The position numbers were made by a program, and so were the translations under genes. This document shows, piece by piece, positions 4,132 to 56,258 of a stretch of DNA of 64,000 nucleotides. Location: NCBI GenBank assembly GCA_030913385.1, contig CP133159.1:640584-704583 (forward strand), in the 5' to 3' direction. Below the pieces are notes generated by a model. It was not told the origin of the DNA. It searched no databases and saw only the letters and a program-made list of their open reading frames with translations. Position 1 is the stretch's first letter, and each line of letters begins with the position of its first letter. This DNA comes from Cytophagaceae bacterium ABcell3. Lineage in GTDB: Bacteria; Bacteroidota; Bacteroidia; Cytophagales; Cytophagaceae.

Positions 4132-4921
4132 GTATCAAATAAAAAAGTGTCTATATTATTTTTCATTTTTGTTTCCGTGGACGTTAAATTATAAGCTTTT
4201 CCGTAATTCTCTAAAAGAGAATAGAGGAACGGACAGCGTTCTTTTTTTTTCTATTATTATACCTACATACAACCGTGCCAAGCTATTAAAAAAAGCAGTT
4301 GATTCTGTGCTTTCTCAAACTTATCCGCACTATGAAATATTAATAATTGACGATGGTAGCAATGACGGAACTCAAGATATGGTTTATAAGGTTTTTTCTG
4401 AAGATCTGTTAAACAAAAAAATTAGGTATGTAAATCACCCCCATAAGGGTGTAGGTTATGCTAGAAATAAAGGGTTAGAAATCGCTCAGGGTGATTTTAT
4501 TGCCTACCTTGACTCAGATAATATCTGGCATAAAAACTTTTTATCTATAATGTATAATGCACTAAAAACCGGTAGTGTGGATTGTGCTTATTGTGCAATG
4601 AGTGTCTTTAATGAGGTTGATAAAATGGTTTTTACATTATTTAACTCTCCGTTCAATAGGAAGAAGTTGCTAAAAACAAATTTCATTGACCTGAATTGTT
4701 TTGTTCATAAGCGTGAGTTATATCTAATAAAAGGAGGTTTTGATGAAACCCTTACTCGTTTGCTTGACTGGGATCTGATACTTAAATATACGTCAGGAAC
4801 AGGAGTTTTACCTGTTCCTGCGCTATTGGTCAGGTACAAAATCAGAAAATCAATACAACACATCACAACATCAAAACCTCTTGAAGAGAATGAAAAGAAG
4901 ATATTGTCTAAGTGGTCTTAA
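4097..4921 (+). CDS. Family 2 glycosyltransferase
   Basis: Classic GT2 signature FSIIIPTYNRAKLLKKAVDSVLSQTYPHYEILIIDDGSNDGT and a DSDN motif. The start may be the Met at 4118. Confidence 0.8.
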   Translation: MLKNFKSMKAIKYQIKKCLYYFSFLFPWTLNYKLFRNSLKENRGTDSVLFFSIIIPTYNRAKLLKKAVDSVLSQTYPHYEILIIDDGSNDGTQDMVYKVFSEDLLNKKIRYVNHPHKGVGYARNKGLEIAQGDFIAYLDSDNIWHKNFLSIMYNALKTGSVDCAYCAMSVFNEVDKMVFTLFNSPFNRKKLLKTNFIDLNCFVHKRELYLIKGGFDETLTRLLDWDLILKYTSGTGVLPVPALLVRYKIRKSIQHITTSKPLEENEKKILSKWS

Positions 4922-4932
4922 TGTTCTAAATC

Positions 4933-5687
4933 TTAAAACTTTCTAAAAACTGCCTGAAATTCATTGGTCATTGGTTGTGTATCAAACACCTCTTCCAGTT
5001 GGAGTGGTATATAATTCATTTCTGTTAACACACTTACCAATTCTTTAAATGAATCCATGGTGTAAACATGGCAGTGTACATCTGCATATTCTTCTTTTGA
5101 AAGTCTTTGTGCAACTTTTAGGGCTTCCTGAGGGGAAAATCGTTGCTGCTGTATTTTTTGCAGATGTTCGTTTCTCCAAACCATTTTTGCATCAACCGCT
5201 TTATGGTAAAAGAAGTGTTCAAGAATGTTATAGAAGCTCGGTTTTTTAACCTTGTTATTATAGTTGTATAAAAGGTCTATAAAAGTTGTATTTCTTCTTG
5301 TAATGTCAAAAGTATAGCGCTTGTCCGGTACGGACAGGAACAAAATTCCGTTAGTTTCAAGTATCTTTTCAATTTCCTGCAACCAACTTATAGTATCTGG
5401 TATGTGCTCAATGACATGATTTGCTATAACCACATCAAATTTTTCATTTATAACCTCTGAATATGCCGGCGTAGGGGAAATAAAATCAACTTTGACCAGC
5501 CTTTCAAGTGCATAACGTGGATTGTTCTTGCTCTTGGCAGAAAGGATTGTTTCAGAGGTATAATCCAAGTATTTAATATTAGCCTCAGATTTTAAATATG
5601 TCGGATTGTCTAAAGGGCCAATTTCTAGTAGACGTGCTTTTCTTATATCTGTTTTAGCCTCTATAATGTTTCTTTTATGCTTCCCAT
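4933..5687 (-). CDS. Class I SAM-dependent methyltransferase (start region disrupted)
   Basis: Motif DVVIANHVIEHIPD lies in the ORF at 4933..5568. The SAM-binding motif KARLLEIGPLDNP is encoded in frame upstream of the annotated TTG. No ATG/GTG/TTG start exists in that frame; an ATG at 5685-5687 is in the -1 frame across an AAAA run (5673-5676). Confidence 0.6.
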
Positions 5688-5695
5688 TTAATTAA

Positions 5696-8600
5696 TTAAA
5701 ATTTTTCTAAAAATGATAAATAATCTAAAACTGTTGTTTTTGTAGAATAGTTAGTGTTTACATCAAGATATGCATTATATCCAATTTCTTTTTTCTTTTC
5801 TATGTTTTTTTCAAGTTCTGCGATAATCGGTACAATCTCATCAATAGTGTTTACTAGAAAACCGTTTTGATTGTGACAAATCATTTCAGAATAAGCCACC
5901 GGATAAGGTGTAGTTATAAAAACTTTCTTCGCTATTCCGGCATTATAGTATTTTAAACCACTTTTCGCATTAATAAAATTATCTACATCTTCAGGTTTGA
6001 AGTTATATTGCTGAGCCAGAGATTTGATATAGGATACAGGATGATCTCCCCAGTTTATAACATAATCTGCTCCTTTAATGAAACCGAAAAGTTCATCTAA
6101 GTCAACACTGTCATAGATGTTAAGATTGTGATGTACTGGGAATTCATACTTTTCTGAAGAGAAGAAATGTATTTTAACTTTTTGCCCTTCCAGTTTCTCT
6201 GAAAGTTCGTTCATTGCTTCTAATCCGGCAGCGCCTATAGAAAAGCAGATGATATGAACGTATTCTGAGTTTAAGTCTTTTGGCTCTGCCCTTAAAAATC
6301 TGTCTGTGTCTATGCCATTTCTAAGGCAAACTGTATTTGGGTTAAACTTTAAGAGAAGCTTTTGTAAATGATTCGTTGAGGTGGTCACATAGTCACAGTT
6401 CTTAATGAATTTAAGAGGCATATCATTTTGACTATGAATAATGTAATCATCAATATCATAAATGAATGTTTTTTTGTTGCCGCCCTTTTTTTTCTTTTTT
6501 AAAACAGTTTTTAGAAAGCTCGGAGAGATTTTTTCATTTAAAGCTCCTATTCTTTGAAATACAAATATATCGTAATTGTCAAAATGAGTGTCTCTGATTT
6601 TATGCCACTTTTTGGCCTTTACCTTCACATAACGGCTAAGTTCTTTTATAATTTCAAAAGTTCTTTTTCGTGTTGAGCTTGAGTACTTGGCATTATACAC
6701 GAACAGAACTCTTTTGTTTGTAGTATTAACTAAGATTTTTTGGTTTTTATTTTTGAAATATAGCTCTTTGTTCTTTTCCCATAAAAGTTTGCTTTCTTCT
6801 GCATAAGAGTTAAAGGAACGGTGTCCATAATGATGCACATACGCATGTTTTACCCATACCGGCTTTGATCCAGAAAGTCTTATGCGGTCTATAAACTGAA
6901 CCTCCTCCCTTGACCCAAGTCCAAAACTCGTATCAAAAAAGCCTATTTCATTAATTAATTCACGTTTAAAGAATAAGCAAAATCCATTCAAGTACTCTGT
7001 TTCTTGATACTGTTCTTTTTCTCTTTCATAAAGATCTTTTCCGAAATCTTGAATTTGCTCGTAAGTCATATCAAACCTCTGTGTATGAACTTCATCTAGC
7101 TGTTGAACCACCCCATCAAAATTCTTGGCAATGCCATAAGAGGTAGACGGGCCGGTGATTACACAGTTTGCATTTTTACTGATTCCGTCCGCAAGAAATT
7201 TATTCCAGTTTTTGGTAACTATTGTATCCGAGTTGAGGAGGCATATGTAACGGCCACGTGAGTTGGTTATTATTAAGTTGCAATTGTAAGGAAATCCTTT
7301 CCTTTCAGTATTCCTCAGGTATTTCACATTATGATGATTCAACTCTAGCTCTTTTAAATAGCTTTTGGTTTCTTCGTCACTTACATCATCAATGAGGATA
7401 ACCTCATATTCTCCCGAGGTATTTTCCTGAATACTTTTGATACAGTCGCGGACATAGTCCACCTGATTGTGAATCGGGATTCCTATTGTTAATTCTACAT
7501 CAGTGGTGAAGTTGATCTCAGGGTTCTTTATGGAGAATCTTTTTAATAACTCTGTTTCAAGCTTTGTTATTGATTTTTCCCATGTAAAATCATTTATGTC
7601 TTTATATGCTTGATTGGCAATTTTTCTAGCAAGCGCAGGATCAGAGAGGATTTTTTTTACCGCTTCCGCAATAGAGGATGGATTTTTCTTTTCAACAAGT
7701 AAAGAGTTTTTATTTGTGCAGAAATCTCTGGATCCTCCAGTATCGGTTGTAATTAAAGGAGTCTTGCATAACATGGCTTCTACACTACACATACCTACAC
7801 CCTCGTACAAGCTAGCTGTTATCCATGCAGAACAGGAAGAGTATATTTCCCGCAACTCCGATTGGTCTGGGTTATAGTGATACTCTATGCCCTCAGGCAA
7901 CTCAGGGCTCTTTTCCTGGCCGAACATGACCATAGTTAGGTCTTTTATGTCTTTCTTTAGGATCTGAAAAGACTTTATTACATCTCTTGATCTTTTCCAT
8001 TCATCTTTATGATAAAGGGAGCCAATTCTGTTGCTGCGGTCTTGTGGGGTCTCAACAAACTGATCAGCGTGTATTCCGAAAGAAATCGTTTTAGCGTTTC
8101 TTCCGGTATGTTTGTGTATCTGCTCTGCTATCCAGGAGGTAGTGGCAAGAAGGTGAAAGTCTTTAATAGAAGCATTTTTGATATCCAAGTCTAAGTCGTG
8201 AACCCCGAAATGCATAAACAACAAAAATTTTAAACCTTTTGACTCGGGAAGTTTGCTGAAGATCTCTGCTGATTTATTATTGCCGTAAGTGATAAAAATA
8301 TCTGCATCAGGAAGCCTTTCTTCTAGGGAGTCTATAGAGCCAGGCCTTTCAAAATATAAGTCTATCACTGGAACAGAAAAATTGAACCAGTCTGATTTGC
8401 TACCTGAATACTGACGAATAAAGTTTACTACATGTCCTTTCTCTTGCAGTAACTTAGCAATCATCATTAGCCTTTTTGTGCCTCCGTGAATATTTGTAGA
8501 AGGGGTTAGTATACTTATTATAAGCTTTCCTTGTTTAGGCCTTGGTCGTTCGGATAATTTACTTTTTTTCCATATGTTATATTTCTGTATAGTGTTTTCA

Positions 8601-39722: not shown

Positions 39723-40499
39723 ATTATTCTGTAGTATGCAATAGAACTTTCCCCTGTCCTTTTTTTCAGCACTTCTACTTGTAAGAATTGATGAATTTGC
39801 CACACCTAACGAGGTTTTAGATAATCGAATAAACTCTTTGAAACTAAGTTATTTTTAGATAATTTAATATCTGTATTTAAACGTTTACAAACGTTTGATA
39901 AAAGTTTGCAAACGGTTTTGTTGTTGGAAATCAACGTATTGCTGTTTTGGACAATAAGAAATTATAAAGGAGATATATCCTGAATTTTGGGGATATACAA
40001 TCGTTATGGCCAATTTATGAAATACAGACTTTTACATATTATCTTTCTGTTGCTGATATTAATTGGATGTGATTTTAAAACATCCAGCGAATATTTTAAT
40101 GATGGAAATATGAAGTCAAATAATGGAGATTATGAAGGTGCTATAAAAGATTTTACTTTGGCAATTAATAAAAATCCTAATGACTATGAATCATATACTA
40201 ATAGAGGAGCTGATTATGCAGCAATTGGAAGGTATAAAGAAGCAATAAGTGATTATAATAAAGCTGTAGAATTAAATCCCAGCAACATAATGGCATACTT
40301 CAATAGAGGTAATTTAAAATCAAAATTAAATGATTTTAATGGTGCAATTGAAGATTATAATCAGGCAATTAAACTTAAGGGGGGAGAAAACCTTTATGTG
40401 GAAATTCATGATAATGATTTCTTAGGTATTCGCTCAACTGACGTAAGAATGGAAAATATCAGATTACAAAGTAAGCCTTCGGGCAAGTGCATGTTGATT

Positions 40500-41954
40500 T
40501 TATAATTTTACCCACTTCCCGGGTAGCAGTTCTTCCAGCCTGTTTACCGGGTGATTGTCTATTCTTTCCAGAACATCTTTCATCCATTCCAATGGGTTTA
40601 CACCGTTGATTTTGCAGCTTGCCACAAGCGAGTATATTTGGGCGGCTCTCTGGGCAGCATCATGTGAACCGGCAAACAGATAATTTTTCCTTCCTATGGC
40701 TACTGGCCTTATTGAGTTTTCCACCAGATTGTTATCTATCTCCAGCTTGCCATCCTCAAGATATATGGAGAGCCTTTCCCATCTGCTCAAGGAGTATTCG
40801 AGCGCCTTTCCAATAGGACTCCTAGGGGCAATATTAGGGTACAGGTTTTTCATCCATTCTTCCAGGTCGTCCAATGTTGTTTTTGCATCAAGCCTTGATT
40901 CCTTTCTTTCTTCAAAAGACATCCCGGCCTCCCTTGCTTTACGCTCAATATCATATAACTTCTGAAATTCTTTCAAGGCATGTTCTGCATTTTCTTTGTC
41001 ATTGTCCAATGCTTTCTCAAACATCCTTCTGGCATGTGCCATACAATGGAACAATGTTATGCCCTTGATGTTGGCAAACATATCATATACGTTATACCCG
41101 TCACATTGCAGGTATCCCTGAAAACCCTTCAGTATATCTGATGGCCCTTCGCTCCCGCGCCCGGGACGATAGTCGAACAGCACCTGTTTCCCGACAGGGT
41201 CATAATATACCCAGTAATACCCCCGGTGGATTTTACTTTTTTTATCCTTGTCGAGAACTTTTATGGGTGTCTCGTCTGCCATCAGGTAACCGGCTTGCAG
41301 TGTCCTCTTTTTATGCAGTTCGTATAAGATTTTAAGCTTGTTTACCCCTTGTTTTACCCAGTCTGACATTGTGGAAGAAGGAAAATTAAGGCCTTCTCTC
41401 TTAAATATCTGTATCTGGCGGTATAAAGGAAGGTGGTCAACATACTTGCTGACAACAAGGAAAGCGACAAGGCTTGCTCCGGCTATCCCTTTCTCTATCG
41501 CCCTGTATGGCAATTCTCCAATGGCAACACCCTCCCCTTCAGGTTTTGCGTATTTCGGGCGTACAATTTTGCGCACATGAAACTTTCCGGTGGTATATTC
41601 AAGAACCTCTGTCACCTCTTCCCCAATTTTTTTCATGCCTGAGGTATCTTCTTCAGGCTCAACAACCTCTTCCACCCTTGGTACATGTGCCGGTATAGGG
41701 AGGCGGCCCGGGTGCTTGCGGGCTGTTTCTTTTTTGACACGCTTAAACCTGACGACCTCCTCTTTTTCAGGGGCAGTTGCCTGCTCTTCACCAAGTCCCA
41801 GGTTTAACTGTTCCGGTGCGGACGAAGGCACAAAACGCTCGCTTTTGGTGCCATATATGAGGCGCTTCAGCTCTTTGAGCTCAAACTTCAAAAGTGCGAT
41901 CTCGGACATCGCCTCCTCATATTTTTCTTTATAGTCTATACCTTCGGCAAGCAT
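40500..41954 (-). CDS. IS66 family transposase (TnpC)
   Basis: 484 aa; LQCDGYNVYDMF and AHARRMF are typical of the IS66 DDE transposase. Confidence 0.85.
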   Translation of the reverse strand: MLAEGIDYKEKYEEAMSEIALLKFELKELKRLIYGTKSERFVPSSAPEQLNLGLGEEQATAPEKEEVVRFKRVKKETARKHPGRLPIPAHVPRVEEVVEPEEDTSGMKKIGEEVTEVLEYTTGKFHVRKIVRPKYAKPEGEGVAIGELPYRAIEKGIAGASLVAFLVVSKYVDHLPLYRQIQIFKREGLNFPSSTMSDWVKQGVNKLKILYELHKKRTLQAGYLMADETPIKVLDKDKKSKIHRGYYWVYYDPVGKQVLFDYRPGRGSEGPSDILKGFQGYLQCDGYNVYDMFANIKGITLFHCMAHARRMFEKALDNDKENAEHALKEFQKLYDIERKAREAGMSFEERKESRLDAKTTLDDLEEWMKNLYPNIAPRSPIGKALEYSLSRWERLSIYLEDGKLEIDNNLVENSIRPVAIGRKNYLFAGSHDAAQRAAQIYSLVASCKINGVNPLEWMKDVLERIDNHPVNRLEELLPGKWVKL

Positions 41955-42010
41955 GTTGCAAAGATAAATAATATACCTATGTAGGTGGTATTAGGAAAAA
42001 AAGAATAAGT

Positions 42011-42370
42011 TTAAAGATTTCCAGGACTTTTATATCTTTTGCGGTGCCTGACCGACTCAAGGGAAATCCCTTGTAAGACCAGTTGCAATACCGAGGCGGA
42101 TATTTCAGATTTGGTCACATTTTTGCAATGGACAGGTATTTCATAAGTCCCTCTTTCAAGGCGTTTGTGATACATACTGAAACCGTCGCCTTCCCATAAA
42201 AGGAGCTTGACATGGTTTCGGTTTCGGTTCAGGAAAATAAAAATGTCCCCGTTCATGGGGTTTTCGTTAAGTTTGCTCCTTACAATACCTGATAGGCTGT
42301 CAAACCCTTTCCGCATGTCGGTTTTGCCCGAATAGAGAAAGTACCTGCACTGGTGAGACAATGAAAGCAT
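42011..42370 (-). CDS. IS66 accessory protein TnpB (Orf2)
   Basis: GKTDMRKGFDSLSGIV...FIFLNRNRNHVKLL. Confidence 0.8.
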   Translation of the reverse strand: MLSLSHQCRYFLYSGKTDMRKGFDSLSGIVRSKLNENPMNGDIFIFLNRNRNHVKLLLWEGDGFSMYHKRLERGTYEIPVHCKNVTKSEISASVLQLVLQGISLESVRHRKRYKSPGNL

Positions 42371-42372
42371 GG

Positions 42373-42672
42373 CTAGCTGACTAATTGTTTAACAAATGAT
42401 GGATCTGCCATGCCGTGGAATATGACCTTGGCACCGGAAGGAAAGACAACTTCCATGTTGCCGGCCGCAGGGTTAATTTCATCAGGGCTGCTTACTTTCA
42501 GAGGGACAAATCCGGTACCGGGCTCCTCTGTTCTATATTTGCCGCACCAATAGATGAATTTTTGATAATTGATGTTCTGCCGAAGGCTAAATTCTTTTTT
42601 ACTGATACCGCTTTGTTGCCAGAGCTGATAAAGCTCACGCATCTGGTCAGATACTTTTGTGTTTGTTGCCAT
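42373..42672 (-). CDS. IS66 Orf1 (TnpA, HTH)
   Basis: 99-aa protein upstream of tnpB inside the IS boundaries. Confidence 0.7.
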   Translation of the reverse strand: MATNTKVSDQMRELYQLWQQSGISKKEFSLRQNINYQKFIYWCGKYRTEEPGTGFVPLKVSSPDEINPAAGNMEVVFPSGAKVIFHGMADPSFVKQLVS

Positions 42673-43125
42673 TATTTTGCTGTTATAGTTTGTAATGCAA
42701 ACTTATGGCGTTATTTTTTGGGAATAAAGATGTACTTGGCCGTAGGTATACATTACAAAGGGGATTTGCCTATGGAGAATTAAATAATTATGAAATGGCA
42801 TTTCACGACTTTGACTTCTGCGTAGCAAATAAATTTGACATAGATATAGCTTTGTTATGGAGAGGTGTATGTTATTATAATACAGGATTTAAAAAAGATG
42901 CTTGCAAGGATTGGCTTATATCAAACCATGAAGAAGCTAAAGAATATTTTAAAATAAATTGTCAGGGAATTTAATACAAACTGGCCATAACAGCATATAT
43001 ACCTCAGAGGGGGTGGGCGTTGTAAGTCAGGCTGTTTCTAATTATCTTACTTCGGCTTCGGAGGATACTGGACTGCTATAAAATCCCCCACTGCTTCAAG
43101 CTTAACGTTATAGGGCATTATAAAA

Positions 43126-43764
43126 ATGAAAACCTTCCATCTAATACTTTTATTTTCAATTATTTTTACTTCCTGTGACTGTAATCAAAGGGTTTTAGGA
43201 ACTGTAATAGATAAAAAAACAAGAAAACCTCTTGAGGGAATTAGTGTGTATAATAAAAATAAAAGATGGAATGTGACCAATACTGATTCTACTGGAAAAT
43301 TTATATTATCAAATGTTTCTGGCGGATTTCGTTGTCCACCAATGACAGTGATAATTGAAGACTCTAGTTACAATTATTTTGAAACTAAAATTCCATCAGG
43401 TAAAGGCAAAATTATTGAATTGACTAAAAAAGATTCCTTAAATCAATTTGTAAAACAAATAATGGATTCAGGGAAATATGGAGTGTATGCAGATTGGTCA
43501 AATTTTATTGAGATTAAATTTATTAATAATGAACAATTTGAACTTGTGAATCAACAAACCATAGGAAGTCAAGGTGTATTCATAATGGAAGGCAAGTGGA
43601 AAGTTAAGGAGGGGGATATTGTTTTGTATAAAATAAAAATCATAGAAAAGTCTTTGAAAGTTGATATACCCAAACAATGGAGAATAATTAATGACGAATT
43701 GTGCCCCATAGATACGACTAATTCCGACTTAAACTATTGCCTAAAACCCGTAAGAAATGATTAA
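43126..43764 (+). CDS. Lipoprotein with carboxypeptidase-regulatory-like domain
   Basis: MKTFHLILLFSIIFTSCDCN lipobox; GTVIDKKTRKPLEGISVY...TDSTGKF. Confidence 0.55.
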   Translation: MKTFHLILLFSIIFTSCDCNQRVLGTVIDKKTRKPLEGISVYNKNKRWNVTNTDSTGKFILSNVSGGFRCPPMTVIIEDSSYNYFETKIPSGKGKIIELTKKDSLNQFVKQIMDSGKYGVYADWSNFIEIKFINNEQFELVNQQTIGSQGVFIMEGKWKVKEGDIVLYKIKIIEKSLKVDIPKQWRIINDELCPIDTTNSDLNYCLKPVRND

Positions 43765-43828
43765 CGCCCTATAACAACTATGGCTTCGTTAGGTATGTAA
43801 TGCCCACAATGAAGCCAGTGTTGTACGA

Positions 43829-44108
43829 AACCGGGGGTAACGCTATGGGGGGTGCTATTCTGGGTTGGGGTTTTCTGTAGGTTAGAATTGGGAACTAATG
43901 CAGCTTTTTGCAAAGTATAACAAGTCAGAACAGGGTCTATGGTTGGCTTAAAAGGATAAGGAGGCAGTTCTCACTCCTGTTCTAACATTGGTAATTAGGA
44001 TTTGAATAGGCTAACGCTTAAGATTGTATAACAAGAGCCGTATGATGGGAGACTATCAAGTACGGTTCTGTGAGAGGCTTGGGGTGAAATTCCCCTTGCC
44101 TACTCGAC
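43829..44108 (+). mobile_element. Group II intron remnant (domains V and VI intact, ORF-less; 5' boundary uncertain)
   Basis: Domain V GAGCCGTATGATGGGAGACTATCAAGTACGGTTC (44035-44068) matches the group II DV consensus GAGCCGUAUG...ACGUACGGUUC. DVI AGGCTTGGGGTGAAATTCCCCTTGCCT-A-CTC carries a bulged A 6 nt before an ...AC 3' end at 44108. Confidence 0.6.
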
Positions 44109-44221
44109 TATCAACGGTAATATTTATGTAAAAAGGAGCCCAGAAATTCTCTCACAGGTGTTATAGAAAATATTATCTTTGAAATCTATAACAATTGCGA
44201 TAGAATTTCATTGTATTGTAA

Positions 44222-45271
44222 ATGAGCGAAATAGTAGCCTATAAAGATTTTTATAAAGAAATAATTGATACGATTAATGCCAGAAGATATAAGGCATATA
44301 AATCGTTGAACAGGCATCACATAGAACACAATTTTGAACTTGGTGAAATAATTGTAAAACATCAGGAAAAACAAAAGTGGGGACAATCAATAGTTGAGAA
44401 ACTTTCTAAAGATATTACCAAGCAAATTGATGGACTAACAGGTTATTCGCCTCAGAATCTATGGAAAATGCGTCAATTTTATCTTGAATATAGAGAGAAA
44501 ACTGTACTGTATGAATTAGCCAAACAAATTCCGTGGGGACAAAATATGCTAGTTCTCCATCAGGTAAAAGACGACAATGAACGAAGGTACTATTTAGAAG
44601 CAACAGCAAGGTTGGGGTGGAGTCGAGCTGTTTTGTTAAATCAAATTAAAGCAGATGCTTATAAGCATCATGTGTTAGATAAGAAGTTAAGCAATTTTGA
44701 AGCTGCGTTACCGTCACATCTATCAGAACAAGCAAATGAAGCTTTAAAAAGTGAATATAATCTTGATTTTCTCGGAATTACCAAACCTGTCCATGAACGA
44801 GAAATTGAAAATAGACTAATTGAAAATATTCGCGATTTATTACTTGAGTTAGGATATGGATTTAGTTTTATAGGAAATCAGTATCGGTTAACATTGAACA
44901 ACAAAGAGTATTTTATTGACTTGCTTTTTTATCACCGGTTTTTGAAATGCTTGGTTGCAATTGAATTAAAAACTGTTGAATTTGAGCCTGAATTTGCAGG
45001 AAAAATGAATTTTTATCTTGAACTTCTCGACAGTAAGGAAAAGCAAGCAGATGACAATCCTTCAATTGGGATTATTCTATGCCCGACAAAAGACGATATT
45101 GAGGTTGAATTTGCTCTGAGGTCTAGTAATAAACCCATTGGTGTATCTGAATATAAATTAACTCATGAACTTCCTGAAAATCTAAAAGGAAAAGTTCCTA
45201 CTTCGAAAGAATTAAAACAAATGCTAACAATAGCTATTAGTAATGCAGGCGGTTCAGCTAAAGGAATATAA
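44222..45271 (+). CDS. YhcG/DUF1016-family PD-(D/E)xK nuclease-like protein
   Basis: The C-terminal YFIDLLFYHRFLKCLVAIELK core matches how I remember the DUF1016 family. Confidence 0.6.
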   Translation: MSEIVAYKDFYKEIIDTINARRYKAYKSLNRHHIEHNFELGEIIVKHQEKQKWGQSIVEKLSKDITKQIDGLTGYSPQNLWKMRQFYLEYREKTVLYELAKQIPWGQNMLVLHQVKDDNERRYYLEATARLGWSRAVLLNQIKADAYKHHVLDKKLSNFEAALPSHLSEQANEALKSEYNLDFLGITKPVHEREIENRLIENIRDLLLELGYGFSFIGNQYRLTLNNKEYFIDLLFYHRFLKCLVAIELKTVEFEPEFAGKMNFYLELLDSKEKQADDNPSIGIILCPTKDDIEVEFALRSSNKPIGVSEYKLTHELPENLKGKVPTSKELKQMLTIAISNAGGSAKGI

Positions 45272-45330
45272 TACTCCCCAATTTTCAGACCACTACTTTA
45301 ATTGATTTATAATCGTTAAATTAGTGAAAT

Positions 45331-45624
45331 ATGAAAGGAAAAAGAAGAAAGTTTACTGCCGCATTTAAAGCACAAGTTGCTGTTGAAGCTTTAAAAGAAA
45401 GAGATAGTTTGGCAGATTTGGCAAGTCGTTTTGAGGTTCACCCTAATATGATCAGTAAGTGGAAGCAAGAGTTTCTTGAAAGGTCCTCAGCAGTCTTTGA
45501 GAAAGACAGTTCAGAGCAAAATCAGGAGCCTTCTATTGATCCTGAAAAGCTTTATGCAAAAATTGGCAAGCTTGAACTGGAGAATGACTTTTTAAAAAAA
45601 AGCTTAGGAAAGTTGGGGAAGTAA
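45331..45624 (+). CDS. IS3 family transposase OrfA (HTH)
   Basis: MKGKRRKFTAAFKAQVAVEAL...; leucine-zipper end. Confidence 0.85.
   Translation: MKGKRRKFTAAFKAQVAVEALKERDSLADLASRFEVHPNMISKWKQEFLERSSAVFEKDSSEQNQEPSIDPEKLYAKIGKLELENDFLKKSLGKLGK
45592..45599 (+). other. A7G -1 programmed frameshift motif joining orfA to orfB
   Basis: TTTTAAAAAAAAGC. The -1 frame reads ...KKLRKVGEVKSLCSMVDTDHK, continuous with OrfB. Confidence 0.7.
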
Positions 45625-45638
45625 AATCTCTTTGTTCT

Positions 45639-46445
45639 ATGGTAGATACTGATCACAAGCTAAGTATTCGCTCCCAATGTGAGATTTTAAATATAAACCG
45701 TAGCAGGTTTTACTACTCTCCTGTTGGAGAAACTGAAGAAAACCTTAAAATAATGAGGGTTTTAGATGAACGGTACCTTCATAAACCTACACATGGTGTT
45801 TTGCAAATGCAGGACCACCTGAGAGATCTTGGTTTTACAGTAAACCATAAGCGAGTTCGTCGCCTATTGAGGCTTATGGGACTTATGGCCATTTACCCTA
45901 AAAAAAACCTCAGCAAGTTAGGCAAAGCTAAGTATATTTATCCCTATTTACTGAGAAACCTGGATGTTGAACGTACAAATCAGGTTTGGGAGATTGATAT
46001 AACATATATCCCGATGAAAAAAGGTTTTATGTACTTGACAGCCATTATCGATGTCCATAGCAGATATGTAGTTGGCTGGGGAGTATCAAACACACTCAGC
46101 GCTCAGTCGAGCCTATCGGTGCTGAAAGAAGCAGTAAGCAGGTATGGGAAGCCAGAGATAATAAACTCTGACCAAGGCAGCCAGTTTACCTGTGGAGAAT
46201 GGGTAAACCTGTTACAAGAAATGAGAATTAAAATCAGCATGGACGGCAAGGGAAGAGCCATTGACAATATTTATATAGAAAGGCTCTGGCGAACTGTAAA
46301 GCAAGACTATGTATACCTACATCCTGCTAAAGACGGTTTGGAACTTTACCAAGGGCTTGCTATATTCTTTGAGTTTTACAATTATGAAAAACACCATCAG
46401 GGAATAGAGCGACAGGTGCCATCAGATGTTTATTTAGCAGCATGA
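45639..46445 (+). CDS. IS3 family transposase OrfB (DDE integrase core)
   Basis: DDE motifs; HTH_21-like N-terminal region. Confidence 0.85.
   Translation: MVDTDHKLSIRSQCEILNINRSRFYYSPVGETEENLKIMRVLDERYLHKPTHGVLQMQDHLRDLGFTVNHKRVRRLLRLMGLMAIYPKKNLSKLGKAKYIYPYLLRNLDVERTNQVWEIDITYIPMKKGFMYLTAIIDVHSRYVVGWGVSNTLSAQSSLSVLKEAVSRYGKPEIINSDQGSQFTCGEWVNLLQEMRIKISMDGKGRAIDNIYIERLWRTVKQDYVYLHPAKDGLELYQGLAIFFEFYNYEKHHQGIERQVPSDVYLAA

Positions 46446-56185: not shown

Positions 56186-56258
<73 letters not shown>

What the first reader, a model, noticed from the sequence alone, without database searches (positions are those of the whole stretch)
43790..44108. ORF-less group II intron remnant with intact domains V-VI in a 450-bp intergenic gap
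Positions 44035-44068 read GAGCCGTATGATGGGAGACTATCAAGTACGGTTC, a textbook domain V (GAGCCGUAUG...ACGUACGGUUC with a GNRA loop). The following hairpin (AGGC-TT-GGGG/CCCC-TT-GCCT) has a bulged A 6 nt before an ...AC 3' end at 44108, as in domain VI. A stem-loop (43791-43827) sits immediately upstream of a GTGTTG at 43829. This is the target preference of bacterial class IIC introns, which insert after terminator-like hairpins. The candidate intron is only ~280 nt and has no IEP/RT ORF. It is most likely a decayed, 5'-deleted copy, perhaps mobilised in trans.
Basis: partly seen in the sequence, partly recalled or inferred. Interest (0 to 1): 0.6.

Follow-up and report, generated by a model that had tools for sequence, protein, structure and literature searches.

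The report
Dead 3' stump of a group II intron
This is the last ~190 bases of a class C group II intron: two intact RNA hairpins and a broken scrap of its reverse-transcriptase gene, next to the hairpin end of an IS91-type transposon. It is an ordinary, non-functional mobile-element remnant.

Summary
The domain V/VI observation is real. Rfam RF00029 hits 44033-44108 (+) at 66.5 bits against a gathering score of 40, E 7e-11. There is no ~280-nt intron.

A profile of 11 full-length relatives (~1.87 kb, mostly Bacteroidota) matches the window only over its last 190 positions, at 43920-44108 (E 1e-42). No D1-D4 model or 5'-end profile hits anywhere.

Bases 43920-44003 are the last 28 codons of the intron-encoded RT/maturase, with two in-frame stops. 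The copy therefore derives from an ORF-carrying intron. It does not derive from the ~630-nt ORF-less form that is common in this lineage.

That hairpin (43774-43824) belongs to a conserved two-hairpin module (43767-43880). In 19 of 47 metagenome loci this module lies 195-430 nt past the 3' end of an IS91-family transposase gene. In other genomes it is recurrently followed by group II intron pieces.

Best reading: a 5'-truncated, dead class C intron copy at a hairpin-type target. It was probably made by incomplete reverse transcription. This is ordinary, since most bacterial group II intron copies are truncated.

The parts
43767..43880 (+). Conserved two-hairpin module, starting 3 nt after the stop codon of ORF 43126-43764. 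Hairpin 1 is 43774-43824 (AAC..GGCTTC..GAAGCC..GTTG). A second hairpin is about 43826-43875. It ends with the T-run motif TTTTCTGTAG (43871-43880). It resembles the oriIS-type end of IS91-family elements and is the probable intron target.
   Evidence: A profile of 6 copies from other genomes hits the window once, at 43767-43855, E 2.2e-6. A profile of 43 metagenome copies hits 43769-43832, E 1.1e-8. Hairpins. Some compensatory pairs in a 35-sequence alignment. In 19 of 47 metagenome loci a Y2_Tnp/Zn_Tnp_IS91 transposase gene ends 195-430 nt beyond the hairpin, in convergent orientation.
43881..43919 (+). 39 nt unassigned, lying between the module's T-run and the detectable start of intron homology.
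   Evidence: No significant match to the intron DNA profile: the alignment starts at 43920 and the envelope at 43900. No match to the IEP C-terminal profile in any frame. No match to other loci.
43920..44009 (+). Remnant of the 3' end of the intron-encoded RT/maturase gene. It reads TSQNRVYGWLKRIRRQFSLLF*HW*LGFE* with in-frame stops at 43983-43985 and 43992-43994.
   Evidence: tblastn with the IEP of L054 (residues 404-431 of 432): 64% identity, E 6.9e-6 against the whole window. A profile of 16 IEP C-termini against the six-frame translation of the window gives a single hit, 43920-44006, E 9.5e-6.
44010..44034 (+). Linker between the ORF end and domain V (3' side of domain IV / J4-5).
   Evidence: Aligned to full-length relatives within the nhmmer hit. 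Many relatives are 93-100% identical from 44024 onward.
44035..44068 (+). Domain V: 34 nt, AGC triad at 44036-44038, GAGA loop.
   Evidence: RF00029, 66.5 bits. Sequence read.
44071..44108 (+). Domain VI, with the unpaired (branch-point position) A at 44102 and the intron 3' end ...CCUACUCGAC at 44108.
   Evidence: RF00029 alignment. The 3' end fits the class C consensus CCUACYCGAU (PMC4028801). In L029 a second intron starts directly after ...CTACTCGAC, which fixes the 3' boundary.

Best explanation
Bases 43920-44108 are the 3'-terminal ~190 nt of a ~1.87-kb class C (IIC) group II intron of a lineage common in Bacteroidota. Three things survive: the last 28 codons of the RT/maturase gene (now with two stop codons), the linker, and intact domains V and VI. 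Domains I-III, the 5' splice site and about 94% of the protein gene are absent. The piece therefore cannot splice, cannot reverse-splice and encodes nothing; it is an inert remnant.

It lies immediately downstream of a conserved double-hairpin module (43767-43880), in the same orientation. Elsewhere this module forms the end of IS91-family rolling-circle transposons next to the 3' end of their transposase gene. The module ends in a T-run motif (TTTTCTGTAG) that resembles the 5'-exon motif of full-length relatives (..TTTCATA|GUGUGCC).

Inferred mechanism: an intron RNP reverse-spliced after this hairpin/T-run target, as class C introns do. cDNA synthesis began at the intron's 3' end and stopped after roughly 190-230 nt. 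The stub was then joined to the upstream DNA, leaving a 5'-truncated copy.

Shown: identity, extent, class and deadness of the fragment; identity and recurrence of the module. Inferred: the truncation mechanism, and that the module was the target.
For: Identity and extent:
- RF00029 at 44033-44108, 66.5 bits.
- A whole-intron nhmmer profile (11 full-length relatives, 1867 positions) matches only positions 1678-1867, at 43920-44108, E 1e-42. It has no other hit in 64 kb. A profile of the last 700 nt of 16 relatives gives the same span, E 2e-47.
- A profile of the 5' 620 nt run with --max gives nothing below E 3, and nothing near the site.
- No D1-D4 Rfam model hits 42500-44600 even at E<=10. 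RF01999 scores 95-107 bits on most full-length relatives tested.
- IEP remnant.

Class C:
- 3' boundary consensus.
- Relatives start GUGUGCCGAG.
- The L054 IEP has RVT_1 + GIIM only, and scores 412 bits on TIGR04416.

Not derived from the ORF-less form:
- ORF-less copies lack profile positions ~523-1780. The window retains 1678-1780.

Truncated copies are routine:
- Among 78 assessable copies of this lineage, about 20 are full-length, 39 ORF-less and 19 apparently 5'-truncated (automatic calls, a few borderline). Truncation points vary: 1014, 1463, 1557, 1642, 1655, 1657, 1709.

Module and target:
- Profiles built without the window hit 43767-43855 and 43769-43832.
- The same module is followed by 5'-truncated intron pieces in L067, L014 (three times) and L071.
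- It is followed by intron 5' parts of two different classes in L164 and L154.
- IS91 link. IS91-family oriIS ends carry subterminal palindromes (PMC13181058).
Against: - The 39 nt between the module's T-run and the first detectable intron homology (43881-43919) are unexplained. The junction is therefore not cleanly 'target motif | truncated intron'.
- The 3' flank (44109 onward) does not continue any IS91-type sequence I could recognise. The window holds no IS91 transposase. The module here is thus a solo end, and its history relative to the intron is unknown.
- Truncation at integration cannot be told from later deletion without the parent copy or an empty site.
- The window copy and the L067/L014 copies share both the module and a similar truncation point (profile ~1655-1678). 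That could mean common descent of a composite unit rather than independent abortive events.
- I could not search the rest of the source genome.
Confidence: 0.85

Rival explanations
1. A full-length intron was inserted here and later lost its 5' ~1.68 kb through deletion or rearrangement. The neighbourhood is rich in insertion sequences (IS66 upstream, IS3 downstream, a solo IS91-type end).
For: The region is a mobile-element junkyard. The IS91-type module lacks its transposase, so DNA has been lost or rearranged here. The 39-nt unassigned stretch 43881-43919 could be a deletion scar.
Against: The fragment starts within about 40 nt of the T-run motif where full-length relatives have their 5' junction. 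A random deletion would have to end almost exactly at the original 5' splice site. In other genomes truncated copies follow the same module with different truncation points. That is the pattern expected of abortive target-primed reverse transcription.
Confidence: 0.3
2. One reading: a compact ORF-less intron of ~280 nt (43818/43829-44108) that still splices, or is mobilised in trans by an IEP encoded elsewhere.
For: Domains V and VI are intact. Genuine ORF-less introns are very common in this lineage, at 39 of 78 assessable copies.
Against: The genuine ORF-less copies are ~630 nt. They carry a complete domain I-III that matches the intron 5' profile (positions 1-523); those scanned in L028 score 99-105 bits on RF01999. 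The window has none of this. GTGTTG sits inside a hairpin arm and fails the class C 5' consensus. 43767-43855 is homologous to an IS91-associated module, not to intron sequence.
Confidence: 0.02
3. The 3' half of a split, trans-splicing group II intron whose 3' exon is the downstream gene.
For: Domains V-VI followed by a gene on the same strand.
Against: The downstream ORF (44222-45271) is a complete YhcG/DUF1016 protein with both Pfam domains matched end to end. It has its own ATG, and a TAA lies immediately upstream in frame. It starts 113 nt after the intron end. No 5' half is present in the window.
Confidence: 0.01
4. The composite [IS91-type hairpin module + intron 3' stump] is itself a propagated or selected unit. 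It could spread with IS91-type one-ended transposition, or be kept as a structured 3' UTR or terminator.
For: A similar composite, with a similar truncation point, occurs twice in an uncultured Flavobacteriaceae genome (L067 1042-1376; L014 7459-7133). Each copy follows a different gene. Domains V-VI differ at only 4 of 79 positions between the window and L067, two of them a compensatory pair in domain VI.
Against: The IEP remnants are only about 46% identical to each other by hand count, and the window's is closer to the active IEP of L054 at 64%. This points to separate insertions. Domains V-VI are equally conserved among active introns, so their conservation here is uninformative. The L014 copy has a decayed domain VI. 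Only one copy exists in the 64-kb window.
Confidence: 0.07

Closest known systems
5'-truncated bacterial group II intron fragments (as catalogued by the Zimmerly group; e.g. H.ha.F1/F2 in Halorhodospira halochloris, PMC7923331)
   Same: Only domains V and VI plus part of the IEP ORF remain. The ORF remnant is disrupted. The fragment lies just downstream of a hairpin structure, in the same orientation as the neighbouring genes. Incomplete reverse transcription has been proposed as the origin.
   Different: H.ha.F1/F2 are class IIB/E fragments in a cluster of integron attC sites. This one is class C and sits next to an IS91-type end module.
Class C (IIC) group II introns that insert after intrinsic terminators or palindromes (Robart et al. 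2007, as cited in PMC4028801 and PMC3001079)
   Same: 3' boundary CCUACUCGAC. Relatives have a small ribozyme (~570-630 nt), a 5' GUGUGCCGAG start, an IEP without an endonuclease domain, and insertion after hairpin + T-run motifs or directly after domain VI of another intron.
   Different: The window copy lacks everything upstream of the last 28 IEP codons. It is a relic of such an intron, not a working member.
Group IIC-attC introns (S.ma.I2 and relatives)
   Same: Class C introns associated with a conserved recombination-type hairpin that directly follows the stop codon of diverse genes.
   Different: IIC-attC introns lie in the bottom strand of attC, opposite to the cassette genes, at TTGT/T (PMC3001079, PMC7923331). 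Here the fragment has the same orientation as the upstream gene. The hairpin module is linked to IS91-family transposases, not shown to be an attC.
ORF-less group II introns of the same lineage (e.g. three ~630-nt copies in Maribacter sp. IgM3_T14_3, L028)
   Same: Nearly identical domains V-VI (96-97%). No intact IEP gene.
   Different: Those retain complete domains I-III and both splice sites, and have lost the whole ORF. The window copy has lost domains I-III and keeps an ORF scrap.
oriIS end of IS91-family insertion sequences (for the upstream module)
   Same: It lies beyond the 3' end of a Y2_Tnp/Zn_Tnp_IS91 transposase gene, 195-293 nt away in all but one locus, and carries two imperfect subterminal palindromes (PMC13181058).
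   Different: No transposase is present in the window. The exact terminus and target tetranucleotide were not defined. The module also occurs in gene-module-gene arrays without transposases (L071, L014).

Membership tests
Group II intron (complete ribozyme) | Domain V: 34-nt hairpin with AGC triad, 2-nt bulge and GNRA loop | tested here: met
   RF00029, 66.5 bits over model 1-77. Sequence 44035-44068.
Group II intron (complete ribozyme) | Domain VI with a bulged A 7-8 nt from an AY 3' end | tested here: met
   Unpaired A at 44102, 3' end GAC at 44108.
Group II intron (complete ribozyme) | 5' GUGYG and domains I-III | tested here: not met
   No D1-D4 model at E<=10 in 42500-44600. The 5' 620-nt family profile and the whole-intron profile find nothing upstream of 43920. 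GTGTTG at 43818 lies inside a hairpin arm.
Group II intron (complete ribozyme) | Intron-encoded RT/maturase ORF in domain IV (bacterial retroelement form) | tested here: not met
   Only residues ~404-431 of a ~432-aa IEP are represented, with two in-frame stops. There is no other IEP similarity in the window.
Class C (IIC) group II introns | 3' boundary consensus CCUACYCGAU | tested here: met
   The window reads CCUACUCGAC at 44099-44108, matching 9 of 10 positions, with the last being Y (consensus from PMC4028801).
Class C (IIC) group II introns | 5' boundary consensus GUNYGCCNRG.. and a small domain I | tested here: not met
   Met in relatives (GUGUGCCGAG; RF01999 at 95-107 bits for most). 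Absent from the window.
Class C (IIC) group II introns | IEP without a DNA endonuclease domain | tested here: inconclusive
   The closest full-length relative (L054) has RVT_1 + GIIM only. The window's own IEP is gone apart from 28 codons.
Class C (IIC) group II introns | Insertion directly after a stem-loop / terminator-like motif | tested here: inconclusive
   The fragment follows a double hairpin ending in TTTTCTGTAG. However, the true 5' junction is missing, and 39 nt are unassigned.
Group IIC-attC introns | [quoted passage not shown] | tested here: not met
   The fragment is on the same strand as the upstream ORF 43126-43764. Definition from PMC3001079 and PMC7923331.
ORF-less group II introns | All six domains and both splice sites present; domain IV without an ORF | tested here: not met
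   The alignment with three ORF-less Maribacter copies shows homology only from about 44020 onward. Domains I-III are absent.
IS91-family insertion sequence (for 43767-43880) | HUH Y2 transposase gene (Y2_Tnp + Zn_Tnp_IS91) | tested here: not met
   tblastn of the L142 transposase against the window gives no hit at E<=1. The transposase is present next to the module in 19 of 47 metagenome loci.
IS91-family insertion sequence (for 43767-43880) | oriIS-type end with subterminal imperfect palindromes beyond the 3' end of tnpA | tested here: inconclusive
   The module is homologous to the sequence at that position in the metagenome elements and has two hairpins. The cleavage site and target tetranucleotide were not determined.

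The most novel reading that the evidence does not exclude
The unit [IS91-type terminal hairpin module + ~200-nt intron stump with intact domains V-VI] may be more than debris. It may be a recurrent composite that is copied or retained as such. It could spread through IS91-type rolling-circle or one-ended transposition, or be kept because the intron hairpins act as a 3' UTR or terminator structure. The clustering of truncation points about 190-225 nt from the intron's 3' end would then reflect a defined product, not random abortion.
Probability: 0.07. Interest if true: 0.5.

Novelty: new member of a known kind. Interest (0 to 1): 0.17.

Why it matters
In itself it matters little. It is one more truncated group II intron copy, useful mainly for annotating this intergenic gap correctly as a pseudo-element rather than a candidate ribozyme or regulatory RNA.

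The comparative work around it gives three modest leads:
- This class C lineage is dominated by ~630-nt ORF-less copies in many Bacteroidota, Alphaproteobacteria and Acidobacteriota MAGs.
- A strongly conserved hairpin module tied to IS91-family transposases begins within a few bases of the stop codons of many unrelated genes.
- That module appears to be a repeated landing site for group II introns of more than one class.

These leads would be worth a systematic survey. They do not change the verdict on the finding.

Tried and rejected
- Exact-protein look-ups of both flanking genes found no contigs. No empty-site comparison was therefore possible, and the nearest homologue of the upstream ORF outside the source genome is only 42% identical.
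- BLAST against plasmids and phages matched only 44019-44118, i.e. generic domains V-VI.
- A 50-aa reconstructed IEP C-terminus, used to look for a parent copy in the source genome, returned only four short maturase fragments from other organisms.
- I tested whether 43818-43919 is the intron's 5' end (an internal-deletion model). It does not align with the relatives' 5' ends, and the 5' profile gives no hit.
- I tested whether the IEP remnant extends to about 43886 in another frame (NWELMQLFAKYNK against KLVMWARKRYKRYK). This is not significant in the profile search, so I dropped it.
- Weak minus-strand tblastn matches to IEPs at 43724-43886 are non-colinear, overlap each other, and have E 0.2-5 in a 1.6-kb search space. 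I rejected them as chance.
- I considered the module as an integron attC site. It has AAC...GTT flanks and starts right after stop codons, but it does not fit RYYYAAC/GTTRRRY well, long contigs usually hold only one or two copies, and it is tied to IS91-type transposases. I left this as unproven.
- I considered the module as a generic terminator of this genome. It occurs only once in the 64-kb window, and the consensus terminator scan found none in 43600-44400.
- The 3' flank 44109-44225 has no homologue among the 170 fetched loci.
- The Rfam mir-BHRF1-2 near-hit at 44139-44213 (23.8 bits against a gathering score of 87) only reflects a local inverted repeat.

Full report
**1. The observation**

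It is followed by a second hairpin with an unpaired A at 44102 and a ...CGAC end at 44108. A gathering-threshold scan of the whole window against Rfam gives two hits only. One is a tRNA at 56186-56258. The other is RF00029 (group II intron domains V-VI) at 44033-44108 on the + strand: 66.5 bits against a gathering score of 40, E 6.9e-11, model positions 1-77 of 77. The core observation is therefore real and far beyond chance.

The upstream details are less accurate.
- The stem-loop lies at 43774-43824, with arms 43774-43790 and 43808-43824 (fold), not at 43791-43827.
- GTGTTG is at 43818-43823, inside the 3' arm of that hairpin, not after it.

**2. How much intron is there?**

A permissive Rfam scan (E<=10) of 42500-44600 finds no D1-D4 model. 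BLAST against plasmids and phages matches only 44019-44118.

I scanned one genome per species for a signature in the domain VI loop. This gave 120 loci, mostly Bacteroidota plus Alphaproteobacteria and Acidobacteriota MAGs. Full-length relatives there are ~1.87-1.90 kb. In most of those scanned RF01999 scores 95-107 bits near the 5' end, and RF00029 marks the 3' end.

Profile results against the window:
- An nhmmer profile of 11 full-length relatives (1867 positions) matches the window once, at positions 1678-1867 = 43920-44108, E 1e-42.
- A profile of the last 700 nt of 16 relatives gives the same span, E 2.2e-47.
- A profile of the first 620 nt, run without filters, gives nothing better than E 3 anywhere, and nothing near the site.
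- The relatives begin GTGTGCCGAGAAGCAG.... The window's GTGTTGTACGAAACC does not align with this.

Only the last ~190 nt of the intron are present.

**3. The stretch before domain V is a dead scrap of the RT/maturase gene**

The intron-encoded proteins of the closest relatives hit 43920-44003 in frame +3. The window reads TSQNRVYGWLKRIRRQFSLLF\*HW\*LGF against TSINRAYDWLKRVKEQFPGLFYHWRLGF in L054 (residues 404-431 of 432). Identity is 64%, with E 6.9e-6 against the whole window.

A profile of 16 IEP C-termini, run against a six-frame stop-tolerant translation of all 64 kb, gives one significant hit, 43920-44006, E 9.5e-6. There are two in-frame TAA codons, at 43983 and 43992.

The L054 protein has RVT_1 plus the maturase domain and no endonuclease domain. 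It scores 412 bits on TIGR04416.

In this lineage ~630-nt ORF-less introns are very common. They lack profile positions ~523-1780. The window retains 1678-1780, so it descends from an ORF-carrying copy, not from the ORF-less form.

**4. Class**

The 3' end CCUACUCGAC fits the class C consensus CCUACYCGAU. The relatives' 5' ends fit GUNYGCCNRG (PMC4028801).

**5. What lies upstream**

While checking the flanks of other 5'-truncated copies, I found that 43767-43880 is homologous to the sequence preceding truncated intron pieces elsewhere. These are in an uncultured Flavobacteriaceae genome (L067, L014) and a Bacteroidota MAG (L071).

Statistical support, from profiles built without the window sequence:
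- A profile of six such copies hits the window once, at 43767-43855, E 2.2e-6.
- A metagenome scan with a hairpin pattern returned 47 loci. A profile of 43 of those copies hits 43769-43832, E 1.1e-8.

Features of the module:
- Hairpin 1 has the consensus AATAACTAAGGCTTCGTGTGG-[variable stem-loop]-CCCAACATGAAGCC-N-TGTTGCACGAAATCC.
- A second hairpin follows, then a T-rich motif.
- A few stem pairs show compensatory changes.
- The module starts within about 10 nt of the stop codon of most of the diverse ORFs that precede it. In the window it starts 3 nt after ORF 43126-43764.

In 19 of the 47 metagenome loci, a gene with Y2_Tnp and Zn_Tnp_IS91 domains ends 195-430 nt beyond the hairpin (195-293 nt in all but one locus), in convergent orientation. 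This is where IS91-family elements have their oriIS end, which carries subterminal palindromes (PMC13181058). The window has no such transposase, so here the module is a solo end. I could not decide whether it is strictly the IS terminus or a fixed target of that IS.

**6. Link between the module and introns**

- In the intron-selected loci, the module is followed by 5'-truncated intron pieces with several different truncation points (profile 1463, 1655, 1657, 1709) and by a stump of another intron subfamily.
- Of the 20 module-selected metagenome loci scanned with Rfam, two carry the 5' part of an intron about 45-120 nt after the hairpin, in the same orientation. These are RF01999 in L164, and RF02001/RF01998 in L154.
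- The module's end (TTTATAG in L067, L014 and L071; TTTTCTGTAG at 43871-43880 in the window) resembles the 5'-exon end of full-length relatives..C(A/T)AC(G/T)TTTC(A/T)TA|GUGUGCC.

The module's second hairpin plus T-run therefore looks like a landing site for these introns, as expected for class C. In the window, 39 nt (43881-43919) between this motif and the first detectable intron homology remain unassigned.

**7. Mechanism**

Shown:
- The fragment has no 5' splice site, no domains I-III and no intact ORF, so it is inert.
- No other intron piece or IEP similarity exists in the 64 kb.

Inferred:
- Target-primed reverse transcription starts at the intron's 3' end.
- The stump lies at, or within 40 nt of, the expected target motif.
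- The same target carries stumps of different lengths elsewhere.
- Incomplete cDNA synthesis at integration is therefore the most economical origin.

Later deletion in this IS-rich region (IS66 at 40500-42672; IS3 at 45331-46445) cannot be excluded. I give it about 0.3.

The same idea was proposed for the domain V-VI-only fragments H.ha.F1/F2, which follow an attC-like hairpin (PMC7923331).

**8. Rivals**

- A working mini-intron is excluded by sections 2 and 5.
- A trans-splicing 3' half is excluded. The downstream YhcG/DUF1016 gene is complete, has its own ATG preceded by an in-frame TAA, and starts 113 nt after the intron end.
- IIC-attC membership fails on orientation. Those introns lie opposite to the cassette genes (PMC3001079, PMC7923331). 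This one is co-oriented with the upstream ORF.
- The one non-trivial possibility left open is that [module + stump] is a propagated composite.
  - For: the window and the L067/L014 copies share both the module and a similar truncation point.
  - Against: their IEP remnants are only about 46% identical to each other by hand count, whereas the window's is 64% identical to an active IEP.
  - Against: one of the copies has a decayed domain VI.

**9. Verdict**

The source is Cytophagaceae bacterium ABcell3: the upstream ORF is 100% identical to RCC89_02895.

The finding is a correctly spotted but ordinary 5'-truncated class C group II intron remnant. Published surveys state that most bacterial group II intron copies are truncated (PMC4028801). 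In this lineage about 19 of 78 assessable copies are.

Interest is low. The by-products listed under 'noticed in passing' are the more interesting outputs.

Noticed in passing
L028 (Maribacter sp. IgM3_T14_3 chromosome NZ_CP187138.1) 2255-2886, 4379-5026, 6356-6987; also L001 3024-3572 and about 35 other loci: Complete ORF-less class C introns of ~630 nt (5' ~523 nt joined to 3' ~80 nt) outnumber ORF-carrying copies in this lineage. There are about 39 ORF-less against 20 full-length among 78 assessable copies. Three sit 0.7-1.5 kb apart in one 8-kb stretch of a Maribacter chromosome.
   Followed up: partly
window 43767-43880; L124-L170; L014, L067, L071: A strongly conserved hairpin module (AATAACTAAGGCTTCGTGTGG...CCCAACATGAAGCC.TGTTGCACGAAATCC) begins within about 10 nt of the stop codon of most of the many unrelated ORFs it follows. 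In 19 of 47 metagenome loci it lies 195-430 nt from the 3' end of an IS91-family transposase gene. It also forms gene-module-gene arrays without a transposase in L071 and L014. It is unexplained why it abuts stop codons, and whether it is an IS end, an IS target or an attC-like site.
   Followed up: partly
3' flanks of intron copies in L001-L123; window 44109-44121: Many Bacteroidota copies share a 3'-exon motif N4-8 AAC(C)GTT(A/G) just after the intron end. The window's TATCAACGGTAAT is similar. Their 5' exons share ..C(A/T)AC(G/T)TTTC(A/T)TA. This is more target conservation than the 'little sequence specificity' usually ascribed to class C introns.
   Followed up: partly
L029 1787-1909; L095/L122; L076; L003; L080: Introns of this lineage are repeatedly inserted directly after domain VI (or domain V) of another intron, giving head-to-tail tandems. 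An example is ...CTACTCGAC|GTGTGCTG in L029.
   Followed up: no
window 43920; L067 1166; L014 7333; L105 4763: Four of the longer 5'-truncated copies start within profile positions 1642-1678, about 190-225 nt from the 3' end. This hints at a preferred stop for reverse transcription or a shared origin.
   Followed up: partly
window 44143-44167 / 44185-44209: A 25-nt imperfect inverted repeat (84% complementary, 17 nt apart) lies immediately upstream of the yhcG-like ATG at 44222. It overlaps a promoter-like TTGAAA-16-TAGAAT at 44179-44206. It also caused a spurious sub-threshold miRNA-family hit.
   Followed up: no
window 40500-42672 (- strand) and 39987-40505: There is a three-ORF IS66-family element (orf1 42373-42672, TnpB_IS66 42011-42370, DDE_Tnp_IS66 40500-41954). 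Its transposase end abuts or overlaps the 3' end of a TPR-repeat ORF, which it may have truncated. An IS3-type pair (45331-45624, 45639-46445) follows directly after yhcG.
   Followed up: no
window 43001-46000: G+C is 0.34-0.36 here, against 0.39-0.46 in the neighbouring kilobases. This is consistent with the segment from the CarboxypepD_reg ORF to yhcG being imported DNA.
   Followed up: no
P0037-P0040: Short annotated 'maturase-specific domain' proteins of 53-85 aa in other genomes (for example Cyclobacterium xiamenense) match the same IEP C-terminus. They may be ORF calls on similar 5'-truncated intron stumps or partial contigs.
   Followed up: no
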